DNA of 64,000 bases. Source: a virus. Taxonomy: Duplodnaviria; Caudoviricetes. The notes under the pieces were generated by a model. It did not search any database. It saw only the letters and a list, made by a program, of their open reading frames with translations, and was not told the origin of the DNA. This document shows positions 4,511 through 50,045 of the stretch, piece by piece. The number at the start of each line of letters is the position of its first letter. Positions within the stretch are counted from its first letter, which is position 1. The position numbers were made by a program, and so were the translations under genes. Location: IMG/VR virus record IMGVR_UViG_3300044645_001661; one strand, given 5' to 3'.

Positions 4511-4588
4511 TTGACAGCATTTGCTAACAGTGTTATGATAAATATATCAACACGTTAAGGAATGTAACAGTTCTTTAATGTTTGTAAC
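4511..4588 (+). promoter_or_regulatory. psbA sigma70 promoter followed by four HLR1-like half-sites
   Basis: TTGACA (4511-4516), 17 nt, TATGAT (4534-4539); minus-strand 8-mers TTAACGTG, GTTACATT, TTAAAGAA, GTTACAAA at 4551, 4561, 4571, 4581. Confidence 0.7.
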
Positions 4589-4598
4589 ACCCCTTAAA

Positions 4599-4697
4599 CC
4601 GAGACCTCTAGGGTGTATAAATTACGTCTCTCATACCCAGTCTGAGGGTGACTGGGGAATAGTAATTACCACCATTTCCCTGATGGTCTTACTACTC
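4599..4697 (+). ncRNA. Structured psbA 5' UTR (PhotoRC-II-like cis element)
   Basis: Nested stems GAGAC/GTCTC, CCCAGTC/GACTGGG, CCAT/ATGG, TAGTAA/TTACTA directly upstream of psbA; the Rfam name is from recall only. Confidence 0.55.
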
Positions 4698-49266: not shown

Positions 49267-49295
49267 TTGACTATATAAGTCAATGGGTATATAGT
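49267..49295 (+). promoter_or_regulatory. Sigma70 promoter of the riboswitch locus
   Basis: TTGACT (49267-49272), 17 nt, TATAGT (49290-49295). Confidence 0.75.
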
Positions 49296-49302
49296 GTGCC
49301 CA

Positions 49303-49525
49303 CGTTCATTCGCTATTTGCGAATAGCGAACGGAAGTAAGCCGACTCGGAACGGATCGTTCATCTATGGAAGCACTCATCCTTACTTGCTTGCAAGCACA
49401 ACTGATTTCCACCCGAGTTTACAAAGCAGAGATGCCGAAACAAACTCGTAACGATCTTATTTGGGAGGTTAAACAAATCTCCCCAAAAGAGTGTAAAGTA
49501 GACGCAAAAGCCGACTGAAGGAACG
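49303..49525 (+). ncRNA. Tandem glutamine-riboswitch-like (glnA motif) aptamers
   Basis: Aptamer 1 (49303-49353): CGTTC-A-[9-bp hairpin]-CGGAAGT-AAG-CCGA-CT-CG-GAACG. Aptamer 2 (49357-49525): CGTTC-A-TCTAT..GTAGA-CGCAAAAG-CCGA-CT-GAAG-GAACG. Both lie upstream of a YRG-motif gene. Confidence 0.65.
49366..49518 (+). CDS. 50-aa ORF nested in aptamer 2 (missed by ORF track)
   Basis: MEALILTCLQAQLISTRVYKAEMPKQTRNDLIWEVKQISPKECKVDAKAD*, read by hand. Confidence 0.55.
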   Translation: MEALILTCLQAQLISTRVYKAEMPKQTRNDLIWEVKQISPKECKVDAKAD

Positions 49526-49556
49526 CTCTTTAGCCTCAAAATTAAGGAGAAACCTA

Positions 49557-49724
49557 ATGTCTAAAGTCGTATATCGTGGTGTTGAATATGACACCAATGA
49601 TCGTCCAAATCAAACTTTGAAAAGAGAACCTCATGTAGAAATCTATCGTGGAGCAATGTTCTGGGTAGATGAAAATGGAAACAAATTCTCCATGGAAAAG
49701 GTACAGGGAGGTAAAGCAAAATGA
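49557..49724 (+). CDS. 55-aa DUF4278-like protein (YRG motifs; family includes GS-inactivating factor IF17)
   Basis: MSKVVYRGVEYDT..IYRGAMF; AAGGAG RBS. Confidence 0.75.
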   Translation: MSKVVYRGVEYDTNDRPNQTLKREPHVEIYRGAMFWVDENGNKFSMEKVQGGKAK

Positions 49725-49822
49725 ATACTTACTTCGTTCGCTATCTTAAGAAAAAAGCAAAGAAGGAAAAACTTCTCAAAGATGCACAATTAAATATGGC
49801 AAAACAACCACAGATTGCATAA
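49721..49822 (+). CDS. 33-aa basic peptide
   Basis: MNTYFVRYLKKKAKKEKLLKDAQLNMAKQPQIA; ATGA coupling, GGAGG upstream. Confidence 0.6.
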   Translation: MNTYFVRYLKKKAKKEKLLKDAQLNMAKQPQIA

Positions 49823-49827
49823 TTTTT

Positions 49828-49865
49828 AAAGGAGGATTGACATCCTCCTTTTTTTTATGTAAAAT
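49828..49865 (+). terminator. Intrinsic terminator with an embedded sigma70 promoter
   Basis: AAAGGAGGAT-TGAC-ATCCTCCTTT plus T-tract; TTGACA (49837-49842), 17 nt, TAAAAT (49860-49865). Confidence 0.75.
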
Positions 49866-49886: not shown

Positions 49887-50045
49887 ATGGACAAAGAAAG
49901 AATAAAATTAATCATTAGTAATATGGAATTATTAATTGATTCATTGAAGAAAGAAGTTCTTTTGGAAGATGTAGTTGAAGAACAACAATTTTCTTCATCA
50001 GTGTTTGGTGATTATGATGAAGTATTTGAAGAATATGATGATTGA
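49887..50045 (+). CDS. 52-aa acidic hypothetical protein (missed by ORF track)
   Basis: MDKERIKLIISNMELLIDSLKKEV..DYDEVFEEYDD. Confidence 0.6.
   Translation: MDKERIKLIISNMELLIDSLKKEVLLEDVVEEQQFSSSVFGDYDEVFEEYDD

What the first reader, a model, noticed from the sequence alone, without database searches (positions are those of the whole stretch)
49267..49822. Tandem glutamine-riboswitch-like aptamers, the second enclosing a whole 50-aa ORF
Seen in sequence: a clean sigma70 promoter starts a transcript with two units that share CGTTC-A .. AG-CCGA-CT .. GAACG. Unit 1 has a normal 9-bp hairpin (TTCGCTATT/AATAGCGAA). In unit 2 the equivalent stem (TCTAT 49363-49367 / GTAGA 49498-49502) closes a ~130-nt loop. 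An ORF (49366-49518) has its ATG in the 5' strand of that stem and its TGA in the CT-GAAG junction. Downstream are a YRG-motif DUF4278-like gene and a coupled 33-aa basic peptide. Established: glnA-motif glutamine riboswitches occur in cyanobacteria and cyanophages, often upstream of DUF4278/IF17-type glutamine synthetase inhibitors. Inference: translating the nested ORF would unfold aptamer 2, combining metabolite sensing with ribosome attenuation. This could let the phage read host glutamine status and adjust nitrogen assimilation.
Basis: partly seen in the sequence, partly recalled or inferred. Interest (0 to 1): 0.72.

Follow-up and report, generated by a model that had tools for sequence, protein, structure and literature searches.

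The report
Gene nested inside double glutamine riboswitch
A lake cyanophage starts a small nitrogen-related operon with a glutamine-sensing RNA built from two interlocked sensor cores, and one of its stems closes around a real 50-codon gene, so sensing and translation must compete on the same RNA; hundreds of cyanophage contigs share this layout and I found no description of it.

Summary
A conserved promoter (49267-49295) starts a leader with two glnA-type units. The stem TCTAT/GTAGA (49363-67/49498-502) encloses a 50-aa ORF (49366-49518). A DUF4278-like gene, a 33-aa ORF and a terminator follow.

The ORF is a real gene. pN/pS is 0.30, length changes come in whole codons, and 356 viral contigs encode relatives, while a limited pattern scan of cellular genomes found none. 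Its last codons double as conserved aptamer sequence and are frozen at synonymous sites. The enclosing stem covaries (UCUAU:AUAGA, UCCCA:UGGGA, UCUCAU:AUGGGA).

The "tandem" reading needs correcting. The two AGCCGACU segments pair with each other, not within their own units. The E-loop halves lie in different units. The G/C of unit 1's CGGAAGUA always complements the base after the last GAACG (182 of 182). So this is one nested fold: a canonical outer core that contains a second, hairpin-capped core holding the gene.

How regulation works is inferred, not shown. Ribosomes on the ORF should unfold both cores. Glutamine should hide the ORF's start and free the downstream Shine-Dalgarno sequence.

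Earlier notes of this scan describe the same layout on other phage DNA. I found no paper that describes it.

The parts
49267..49295 (+). Promoter-like site: -35 TTGACT (49267-72), 17-nt spacer, -10 TATAGT (49290-95). The predicted start lies just before the aptamer.
   Evidence: 10 of 12 matches. 139 of 181 related elements have a match of at least 9 of 12, with the -10 ending 7-10 nt before CGTTCA. The transcription start is not mapped.
49303..49307 (+). Outer P1, 5' strand (CGUUC), followed by A49308.
   Evidence: Invariant in all relatives. Assigned to the outer core from the connectivity argument and the linchpin covariation.
49309..49330 (+). P2a: an ordinary 9-bp hairpin (UUCGCUAUU-UGCG-AAUAGCGAA).
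   Evidence: This helix covaries in relatives (5 of 5 pairs change on both sides). In about 49 related elements it encloses a paralogous ORF instead.
49331..49338 (+). Outer J2/3, CGGAAGUA. G49333 is the linchpin G. AGUA (49335-38) is one half of the E-loop.
   Evidence: Matches the Rfam consensus. Its third base covaries with the base after the last GAACG: G:C 100 times, C:G 82 times, no exception. Pair 29-105.
49339..49346 (+). X1 (AGCCGACU): 5' strand of the shared P3 helix. It pairs with X2.
   Evidence: Cross-unit covariation. The intra-unit hairpin is refuted.
49348..49361 (+). Inner P1' hairpin: GGAACG, loop GAU, CGUUC. G49354 is the inner linchpin partner.
   Evidence: Present in the minimum-free-energy fold. 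The strands never vary. G after the middle GGAACG faces C of the inner CGCAAA in 181 of 182 elements.
49363..49367 (+). P2b, 5' strand (UCUAU). It contains A and U of the nested ORF's AUG.
49366..49518 (+). Nested gene ORF-B, 50 aa. Predicted helical hairpin with Cys8 and Cys43. The tail DAKAD is dictated by aptamer sequence.
   Evidence: 124 protein clusters and 356 viral contigs. Codon-position diversity 0.27/0.15/0.46 and pN/pS 0.30. AlphaFold2 pLDDT 85. Homologous to the ORFs nested in P2a of relatives (hhalign 96%, E 1.6e-9).
49498..49502 (+). P2b, 3' strand (GUAGA). These bases are also codons 45-46 of ORF-B.
   Evidence: Covariation across 54 distinct strand combinations: 5.72 contiguous pairs against 3.94 +/- 0.20 when shuffled, 0 of 2000 shuffles as high. 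The third position of codon 45 is frozen.
49503..49508 (+). Inner J2/3 (CGCAAA). C49505 faces G49354.
   Evidence: pair 50-83 is G:C in 25 of 25 sequences.
49509..49516 (+). X2 (AGCCGACU): 3' strand of the shared P3. It is also codons 48-50 plus the U of the stop codon.
49517..49525 (+). Outer J3/1 GAAG (the GAA half of the E-loop; its first two bases complete the UGA stop), then the outer P1 3' strand GAACG.
49526..49549 (+). Expression platform. Linchpin C49526 is the first base of the anti-SD CUCUUUAG (49526-33). Loop 49534-41. SD side UUAAGGAG (49542-49).
   Evidence: The hairpin is predicted. C49526 covaries with G49333. The same layout is described for Synechocystis gifB (PMC6212724). 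The switching itself is inferred.
49557..49724 (+). DUF4278-like (IF17-like) gene, 55 aa, with two YRG motifs.
   Evidence: Pfam PF14105 E 5.2e-4, 20.8 bits, below the cut-off of 25.3. 23 of 27 relatives match at E <= 0.01. phrog_5049 E 2.6e-9.
49721..49822 (+). 33-aa basic ORF coupled by an ATGA overlap.
   Evidence: Conserved next gene in many relatives. A similar module sits in the same polypeptide as the YRG protein in other phages.
49828..49851 (+). Intrinsic terminator that ends the operon.
   Evidence: 10-bp stem followed by a T run.

Best explanation
This is the leader of a small early cyanophage operon, and it forms one composite glutamine-I (glnA-type) riboswitch.

SHOWN BY COMPARATIVE EVIDENCE
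- The outer core is canonical. It consists of P1 (49303-07 with 49521-25), hairpin P2a, J2/3 CGGAAGUA, P3, J3/1 GAAG, and the linchpin pair G49333:C49526.
- P3 is not a small hairpin. It is a helix between X1 (49339-46) and X2 (49509-16).
- Inside P3 sits a second, E-loop-less core. It consists of the capped hairpin GGAACG-GAU-CGUUC, stem P2b, CGCAAA, and the C49505:G49354 pair.
- P2b closes around a real gene, ORF-B. Its AUG lies in the stem's 5' strand. Its last seven codons are the stem's 3' strand, the inner J2/3 and X2. Its UGA overlaps the E-loop strand.

INFERRED
- A ribosome on ORF-B melts P2b and, near the stop codon, X1:X2 and the outer P1. Translation of ORF-B and glutamine sensing are therefore mutually exclusive.
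- When glutamine stabilises the fold, ORF-B's start region is buried in P1' and P2b. C49526 is pulled out of the anti-SD hairpin (49526-33 with 49542-49). This frees the SD of the DUF4278-like gene, as proposed for Synechocystis gifB.
- The net effect would be a reciprocal switch. At low glutamine the nested small protein is made. At high glutamine the IF17-like protein and its 33-aa partner are made.
For: Identity as glnA-type RNA:
- Unit 1 scores 31.4 bits against RF01739.
- ORF-less relatives with the same core score 33-36 bits.
- S-CREM1's doublet is annotated as a glnA riboswitch.

Nested topology:
- X1:X2 pairs with compensatory changes: AG/CU to CG/CG at either end, ACAA with UUGA, and AGUCG with CGACU or CGGCU.
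- The intra-unit hairpins fail.
- The linchpin pair is G:C in 100 elements and C:G in 82, with no mismatch (25 of 25).
- The linchpin state changes at least 11 times on a tree of the nested proteins, against 46 for shuffled labels.
- AGUA occurs only in unit 1 and GAA only in unit 2. About 183 of 204 elements fit that pattern, and the rest are mostly chance matches or truncated.

Stem around the gene:
- Covariation, with 0 of 2000 shuffles as good.
- The minimum-free-energy fold contains P2b, P1' and the anti-SD hairpin.

Real gene:
-.
- Third codon positions of codons 45-51 are frozen (diversity 0.00-0.28, against a mean of 0.46 in the interior).

Downstream gene family.

Mechanistic precedent: in Synechocystis gifB, glutamine forms the G23:C60-type pair, and that C with its neighbours can pair with the RBS. 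That riboswitch enhances translation (PMC6212724).

Expression: RNA-library contigs of relatives span the composite, the ORF and the start of the next gene (X20 record 9).
Against: - No ligand binding, structure probing, transcription-start mapping or ribosome profiling exists for any of these elements.
- The direction of regulation rests on analogy.
- All P1 strands are invariant, so their partners are deduced from connectivity and the linchpin pair, not from P1 covariation.
- The window's X1:X2 helix has two C-A mismatches in 8 pairs.
- The inner core lacks the E-loop, so its glutamine binding is open.
- The anti-SD and the SD never vary within this linker class, so there is no covariation for that hairpin.
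- Other lineages have different linkers, and some suggest other logic.
- ORF-B has no SD, and its initiation mechanism is unknown.
- The first ribosome can load before the 3' half of the sensor is transcribed, so control of ORF-B may be weak.
- A ribosome terminating at 49516-18 could itself open the anti-SD hairpin. That would couple the genes positively rather than reciprocally.
Confidence: 0.6

Rival explanations
1. Passenger gene. The composite riboswitch is real and regulates only the DUF4278-like gene. The small ORF merely sits in a loop that tolerates insertions, much as homing-endonuclease ORFs sit in group I intron loops. It has no regulatory coupling beyond the nuisance of ribosomes passing through.
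For: - P2 loops vary in length and sequence in ordinary glnA RNAs.
- ORF-less doublets exist with the same core (28 of 204).
- The same protein family is found in P2a, in P2b, or free-standing upstream (L061). This looks like a movable cargo.
Against: - In every lineage the AUG lies in the stem's 5' strand, at a nearly fixed distance from CGUUCA.
- In the P2b position the reading frame always runs through the 3' strand, the inner J2/3 and X2, and stops at the X2/GAAG border.
- A mere passenger would be expected to sit entirely inside the loop.
- This overlap has been kept while the protein diverged to about 25-30% identity.
Confidence: 0.22
2. Positive coupling, or an all-off switch. The SD of the DUF4278-like gene is opened mainly by ribosomes terminating at the nested ORF's stop codon. 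Glutamine-stabilised folding blocks the nested AUG and so turns the whole operon down at high glutamine.
For: - The stop codon (49516-18) lies 8 nt before the anti-SD. A terminating ribosome should open the base of that hairpin (coordinates, hairpin).
- In S-SRM01-type variants the ORF reads five codons further and stops inside the anti-SD.
Against: - The only tested glutamine-I riboswitch upstream of a DUF4278 gene is an ON switch (PMC6212724).
- The linchpin C is the first anti-SD base, which fits ligand-driven opening.
- ORF-less doublets keep the same anti-SD linker, so the platform works without an upstream ORF.
Confidence: 0.12
3. One reading: two independent tandem aptamers, each with its own P1 and AG-CCGA-CU hairpin. 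Only the second is affected by translation of the nested ORF.
For: - Rfam aligns each unit separately.
- The literature counts glutamine doublets as tandem, pseudo-cooperative riboswitches (PMC9481103).
Against: - The intra-unit P3 pairs are unpaired in most relatives.
- The 5-nt variants AGUCG and CGACU cannot form hairpins.
- Cross-unit compensatory changes occur.
- Under this model unit 1's linchpin G would face G in 100 of 182 elements.
- Each unit lacks one half of the E-loop.
Confidence: 0.04
4. The composite RNA does not sense glutamine. It is a diverged derivative that binds another ligand or a protein, or it acts only as a structural or processing element.
For: - Scores against RF01739 are at or below the gathering threshold.
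- The inner core lacks the E-loop.
- No binding data exist.
Against: - The outer core keeps every conserved junction nucleotide of the glnA consensus and the covarying linchpin pair.
- It keeps the family's typical gene association with DUF4278 (PMC6212724).
Confidence: 0.05

Closest known systems
Glutamine-I riboswitch (glnA RNA motif, Rfam RF01739), e.g. the Synechocystis gifB leader (Klahn et al. 2018, PMC6212724) and the aptamer whose structure is summarised there (Ren et al. 2015)
   Same: - P1 CGUUC/GAACG, the bulged A, a variable P2, J2/3 CGGAAGUA, J3/1 GAAG and the linchpin G:C pair.
- The linchpin C starts a stretch that can pair with the RBS.
- It sits upstream of a DUF4278/IF17-like gene.
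   Different: - P3 is an intramolecular duplex of two distant segments, 162 nt apart here, instead of a 3-bp hairpin.
- A second core is nested inside P3.
- One P2 stem encloses a protein-coding gene that overlaps conserved aptamer nucleotides.
- Rfam's model finds only half of it, below threshold.
Tandem ('pseudo-cooperative') glutamine riboswitch doublets: 157 doublets counted by Sherlock et al. 2022 (PMC9481103); annotated as a single glnA feature in phage S-CREM1 (PMC9964418)
   Same: The ORF-less relatives (S-PM2, S-CREM1 and 28 contigs here) are this doublet. The window has the same core sequence.
   Different: - Covariation here shows that the two units are not independent. They share P3, the E-loop and the linchpin across units.
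- Most phage doublets collected here (about 155 of 204) carry an ORF in one or both P2 stems.
- The papers I could read mention neither point.
Glutamine-II riboswitch (Downstream-peptide motif, RF01704)
   Same: - CGUUCA, a hairpin, then a CGCA-type junction, as in the inner core.
- Weak hits to unit 1 of P-SSM2 and S-PM2 (26.4 and 24.6 bits).
- Also precedes DUF4278 genes.
   Different: - No hit in the window.
- The type II pseudoknot with the RBS is not evident here.
- In type II the small ORF lies downstream of the aptamer, not inside it.
ORFs looped out of structured RNAs, e.g. homing-endonuclease genes in peripheral loops of group I introns (own knowledge); and leader-peptide attenuation or translational coupling
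   Same: - A whole ORF sits in a terminal loop closed by a long-range helix.
- Ribosome passage must remodel a regulatory RNA fold.
   Different: - The host RNA is a metabolite sensor, not a ribozyme.
- The ORF overlaps conserved core nucleotides at both ends.
- There is no run of regulatory codons, and there is no terminator/antiterminator pair.

Membership tests
Glutamine-I riboswitch (RF01739) | Score at or above Rfam's gathering threshold (35 bits) | tested here: not met
   No hit in the window at gathering. Unit 1 scores 31.4 bits, E 8.7e-5. Unit 2 is not reported. Relatives score 28.9-35.6 bits. The model assumes a single contiguous aptamer.
Glutamine-I riboswitch (RF01739) | Conserved core: P1 CGUUC/GAACG, A bulge, P2 hairpin, J2/3 CGGAAGUA, P3, J3/1 GAAG | tested here: met
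   All are present once the outer core is read across both units. P2a, P2b and P3 covary.
Glutamine-I riboswitch (RF01739) | Long-range linchpin G:C pair between J2/3 and the base 3' of P1 (G23:C60 type, PMC6212724) | tested here: met
   G49333 and C49526. G:C 100 times and C:G 82 times with no mismatch. 25 of 25. At least 11 changes of state on a tree.
Glutamine-I riboswitch (RF01739) | Selective binding of L-glutamine | not testable with these tools
   Needs in-line probing or ITC.
Glutamine-I riboswitch (RF01739) | Location in the 5' leader of a nitrogen-related or DUF4278 gene | tested here: met
   The promoter lies 7 nt upstream. The DUF4278-like gene starts 31 nt downstream of P1.
Tandem independent aptamers (pseudo-cooperative doublet) | Each unit forms its own complete aptamer, with its own P3 and its own junctions | tested here: not met
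   The intra-unit P3 fails. There is a cross-unit helix and a cross-unit linchpin. The E-loop halves are split between the units.
DUF4278 / IF17-like proteins (PF14105) | Pfam gathering score, N-terminal YRG..Y motif | tested here: inconclusive
   The window protein scores 20.8 bits against a cut-off of 25.3, E 5.2e-4. 23 of 27 relatives match at E <= 0.01, best 2.3e-7. Y6, R7 and G8 are invariant. Inhibition of glutamine synthetase is not tested.
Leader-peptide attenuation | A short leader ORF enriched in codons of the sensed amino acid, plus alternative terminator/antiterminator hairpins | tested here: not met
   4 Gln among 50 residues, and these are not conserved in marine relatives. There is no terminator between the ORF and the next gene.

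The most novel reading that the evidence does not exclude
This would be a bifunctional mRNA leader. Two glutamine-binding cores share one helix, and protein-coding genes are built into the sensor's own stems. Ribosome traffic on the nested gene and metabolite binding would gate each other. The result would be a reciprocal, glutamine-set choice between a small two-cysteine protein and an IF17-like regulator of glutamine synthetase during infection. This would be a new class of riboswitch architecture (gene-in-aptamer) and a new way for phages to read host nitrogen status.
Probability: 0.35. Interest if true: 0.9.

Novelty: new variant of a known kind. Interest (0 to 1): 0.8.

Why it matters
- Riboswitch aptamers are treated as compact, non-coding, self-contained domains. 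Here a validated class appears in hundreds of phage contigs as a split, nested double sensor. Its helices span 130-250 nt of coding sequence, and its conserved core doubles as codons and a stop codon.
- Standard covariance-model scans miss or mis-annotate it, so counts and models of 'tandem' glutamine riboswitches may need revision.
- It gives a natural system for testing how translation and ligand sensing compete on one RNA.
- It points to an unstudied phage operon likely aimed at host nitrogen control. The operon holds a small two-Cys protein, an IF17-like protein and a basic peptide.
- Cultured phage-host pairs that carry it (S-SRM01, DSL-LC02/03, P-SSM2) make it directly testable.

Tried and rejected
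- **Rfam scans.** The gathering scan found only PhotoRC-II. The E-value scan found unit 1 only.
- **Own covariance model.** The model of the ORF-less composite (R1) cannot bridge the 130-nt insert. It gives a mis-aligned 25.7-bit hit at 49301-49403. The 'Infernal with the loop removed' test could therefore only be replaced by natural ORF-less relatives.
- **Independent tandem aptamers.** Rejected.
- **Leader-peptide (Gln-codon) attenuation.** Rejected.
- **ORF-B function.** Pfam gave nothing. PHROGs gave only phrog_504, unknown function, E 0.0096. The ESM Atlas gave nothing at 0.9 or above. BFVD fold matches are only other uncharacterised cyanophage proteins.
- **ORF-B in cellular genomes.** None was found by a pattern scan of limited sensitivity.
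- **P2a-type ORF in this window.** None. There are no other glnA-like cores in the window.
- **Whole genome of the window.** Not held.
- **RNA evidence.** The four RNA runs are assembled contigs of relatives. They show presence in RNA libraries and bridging of the element, but no starts, ends or levels. The lack of cover upstream of 49296 cannot be interpreted.
- **Anti-SD pairing.** It never varies within this linker class and differs in other classes, so the expression platform could not be tested by covariation.
- **P1 partner assignment.** It could not be tested by covariation because all four strands are invariant.
- **Literature.** Ames & Breaker 2011 could not be read. The absence of a prior description rests on the papers searched.
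- **Complex prediction.** Not used, because no protein-protein binding is claimed.
Full report
**1. Observation**

The window is a T4-like cyanomyovirus fragment from lake-water metagenomes. It has a PhotoRC-II RNA, ThyX and Kyanoviridae relatives.
- A promoter-like site TTGACT-17-TATAGT (49267-49295).
- Unit 1: CGTTCA, a 9-bp hairpin, then CGGAAGTAAGCCGACTCGGAACG.
- Unit 2: its 5' half (CGTTCA-TCTAT, 49357-67) and its 3' half (GTAGA-CGCAAAAGCCGACTGAAGGAACG, 49498-49525) lie 130 nt apart.
- An ORF at 49366-49518. Its ATG is in the stem's 5' strand and its TGA straddles AGCCGACT|GAAG.
- A 55-aa YRG-motif gene (49557-49724).
- A 33-aa ORF overlapping by ATGA (49721-49822).
- A terminator (49828-51).

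Rfam's glnA model reports only unit 1, below threshold (31.4 against 35 bits, E 8.7e-5).

**2. The layout is conserved and widespread**

Cultured phages S-SRM01, DSL-LC02, DSL-LC03 and P-SSM2 have the same layout, with an ORF inside unit 2. S-PM2 and S-CREM1 have the same two units without an ORF, and in S-CREM1 the element is annotated as a glnA riboswitch. The second units of those ORF-less phages score 33.3 and 33.5 bits. Outside the two variable stems, the window's core is letter for letter that of ORF-less doublets such as L297 and L301. This stands in for the 'loop removed' Infernal test, which the tools cannot run. My own covariance model cannot bridge the insert.

The 14-mer that joins CGTTCA to the ATG occurs in more than 119 IMG/VR contigs. 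A protein-profile scan found 356 viral contigs. A junction-anchored scan brought the set to 204 non-identical doublets:
- 98 have an ORF in unit 2 only.
- 42 have an ORF in both units.
- 7 have an ORF in unit 1 only.
- 28 have none.

The promoter is conserved in 139 of 181 elements. Its -10 ends 7-10 nt before CGTTCA.

**3. The nested ORF is a gene**

- Relatives range from 49 to about 66 aa. They differ by whole codons and fall to about 25-30% identity. The ATG, two cysteines about 35 residues apart, and the frame through the 3' half are all kept.
- In 64 distinct same-length sequences, diversity at codon positions 1/2/3 is 0.27/0.15/0.46 in the interior. pN/pS is 0.30.
- The last seven codons (ATA GAC GCA AAA GCC GAC TGA) are nearly frozen at third positions, so RNA constraints act there.
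- AlphaFold2 gives a confident helical hairpin (pLDDT 85) with a disordered DAKAD tail. This fits a tail dictated by RNA rather than by protein function.
- No known function was found.
- No cellular homologue was found by a limited scan.
- The ORFs that sit in unit 1's stem in other phages are homologous: hhalign 96%, E 1.6e-9, aligned from Cys to Cys. Many of them carry a signal-peptide-like N-terminus.

**4. The stem around the gene is real**

Across 148 ORF-bearing elements the two strands covary. Examples are UCUAU:AUAGA or GUAGA, UCCCA:UGGGA, UCUCAU:AUGGGA, UCCUAU:AUAGGA and UUCUUA:UGAGAA. The 54 distinct combinations average 5.72 contiguous pairs, against 3.94 +/- 0.20 for shuffled partners (0 of 2000). 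RNAfold's minimum-free-energy fold of the window's leader also contains this long-range stem.

**5. The topology is nested, not tandem**

I tested this on my own data.

(a) The segments X1 (AGCCGACU after AGUA in unit 1) and X2 (AGCCGACU before GAAG in unit 2) covary with each other:
- AG to CG in X1 goes with CU to CG in X2.
- CU to CG in X1 goes with AG to CG in X2.
- ACAA goes with UUGA.
- Five-nucleotide forms AGUCG with CGACU or CGGCU, and AGUCA with UGACU, cannot form hairpins of their own.

On an alignment of 26 ORF-less doublets, the cross helix has 4 pairs with changes on both sides. The intra-unit pairs are unpaired in 20 of 25 and 9 of 14 sequences.

(b) Unit 1 always has the AGUA half of the E-loop and a one-base J3/1. 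Unit 2 always has the GAA half and CGCAAA instead of CGGAAGUA.

(c) The third base of unit 1's CG[G/C]AAGUA is always complementary to the base after the last GGAACG: G:C 100 times and C:G 82 times, with no exception. Under a tandem model it would face G in 100 cases (25 of 25). This is the position of the glutamine-dependent G23:C60 pair described for the solved aptamer (PMC6212724). On a rough tree of the nested proteins, the state changes at least 11 times, against 46 for shuffled labels. Recombination could contribute to that number.

Only one connectivity gives a canonical core:
- The first CGUUC pairs with the last GAACG.
- P2a is followed by CGGAAGUA.
- P3 is X1:X2, followed by GAAG.
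- Inside P3 lies a second three-way junction. It consists of the hairpin GGAACG-GAU-CGUUC, an A, P2b (with the gene) and CGCAAA. C49505 faces G49354 (181 of 182).

The P1 strands never vary, so their partners are inferred.

**6. Downstream genes**

The 55-aa protein is a weak DUF4278 match on its own (20.8 bits against 25.3). However, 23 of 27 relatives match, and YRG is invariant. The 33-aa basic ORF is a conserved neighbour. A similar helical module (LIKxQ...AQL) appears in one polypeptide with the YRG protein in other phages, at either end. This suggests the two act together. Homology of that module was judged by eye only.

**7. Mechanism (inferred)**

Linchpin C49526 is the first base of CUCUUUAG (49526-33). 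That stretch pairs with UUAAGGAG (49542-49), which contains the SD. In Synechocystis gifB the equivalent C and its neighbours can pair with the RBS, and glutamine enhances translation. By analogy, glutamine should turn the DUF4278-like gene on.

The nested ORF's start region (about 49346-49385) lies in P1' and P2b, so the folded state should hinder its initiation. Conversely, a ribosome on the ORF melts P2b and then the inner J2/3, X2, the E-loop strand and the outer P1. The sensor cannot exist while the ORF's 3' end is being read.

I therefore favour a reciprocal switch, but two rivals remain open:
- A ribosome terminating 8 nt before the anti-SD could open it, giving positive coupling.
- The ORF could be a tolerated passenger. 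The fixed overlap of its start and stop with conserved core positions across deep divergence argues against this.

Linkers differ among lineages, so the logic may not be uniform.

**8. Expression evidence is weak**

Metatranscriptome contigs of relatives cover the element. One contig (X20 record 9, 343 nt) bridges the composite, a diverged ORF interior and the start of the next gene. These are contigs from RNA libraries, so they show no ends or levels.

**9. Comparison with the literature, and novelty**

- Weinberg et al. [quoted passage not shown]
- Sherlock et al. 2022 count 157 doublets and treat them as pseudo-cooperative tandems.
- Klahn et al. 2018 link the aptamers to DUF4278 genes.
- The S-CREM1 paper annotates one glnA element.

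None of the texts I could search mentions shared helices between the units or genes inside the stems. Other agents of this scan reported the same layout on other phage genomes. I treat those notes as leads, and the ones I used were re-tested here.

**Verdict.** The feature is real and strongly supported by comparative data. It is a new architectural variant of a known riboswitch class. Its regulatory logic is untested.

Noticed in passing
L014, L018, L020, L060, L072, L086 and others (e.g. L014 minus strand, upstream of its unit 2): In about 49 related elements, the first hairpin (P2a) also closes around a gene of 59-75 aa. Many of these have a signal-peptide-like N-terminus and two Cys. The stems covary (UCCUAU:AUAGGA, UCUUAUG:CAUAAGA, UCCAAU:AUUGGA). 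In one group the ORF ends in the UAA of the AGUAA E-loop motif. The window itself has an ordinary P2a and no such gene.
   Followed up: partly
window 49721-49822; L222, L211, L004, L015 and others: The 33-aa basic ORF resembles a helical module (LIKxQ..K...L..AQL). In other cyanophages this module sits in the same polypeptide as the YRG/DUF4278 protein, N-terminal in marine types and C-terminal in S-CREM1-like types. This hints that the two window proteins work together. Judged by eye only.
   Followed up: partly
window 4575-4670 (+): PhotoRC-II RNA (RF01717), 79.6 bits, E 3.7e-12. A known cyanophage cis-regulatory motif.
   Followed up: no
window 49267-49283: The -35 hexamer is part of a perfect 6-bp inverted repeat, TTGACT-ATATA-AGTCAA. 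Many relatives instead have a G-rich/C-rich inverted repeat flanking the -10 (e.g. GGGGTATAATAATCCCC). This could be an operator, but it could also arise by chance.
   Followed up: no
window 49837-49865 (+): A near-consensus promoter-like site (TTGACA-17-TAAAAT, 11 of 12) overlaps the operon's terminator hairpin. It lies just upstream of the 52-aa acidic ORF at 49887-50045.
   Followed up: no
L002 (DSL-LC03) 726-878; protein clusters P0002, P0008, P0014: The nested gene is not annotated in phage DSL-LC03. Several 50-aa homologues carry the JGI name 'indole-3-glycerol phosphate synthase', which looks like a spurious automatic label.
   Followed up: no
window 49309-49330 compared with L006 607-628 and L297: The window's P2a hairpin (UUCGCUAUU...AAUAGCGAA) is almost the same hairpin that ORF-less relatives carry at P2b. 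The same protein family can also sit in P2a or in P2b (L226 against L221, L215 against L286). This suggests exchange between the two positions.
   Followed up: partly
L061 minus strand, about 270 nt upstream of its doublet: A homologue of the P2a-type nested protein is encoded as a free-standing gene upstream of the promoter of an ordinary doublet.
   Followed up: no
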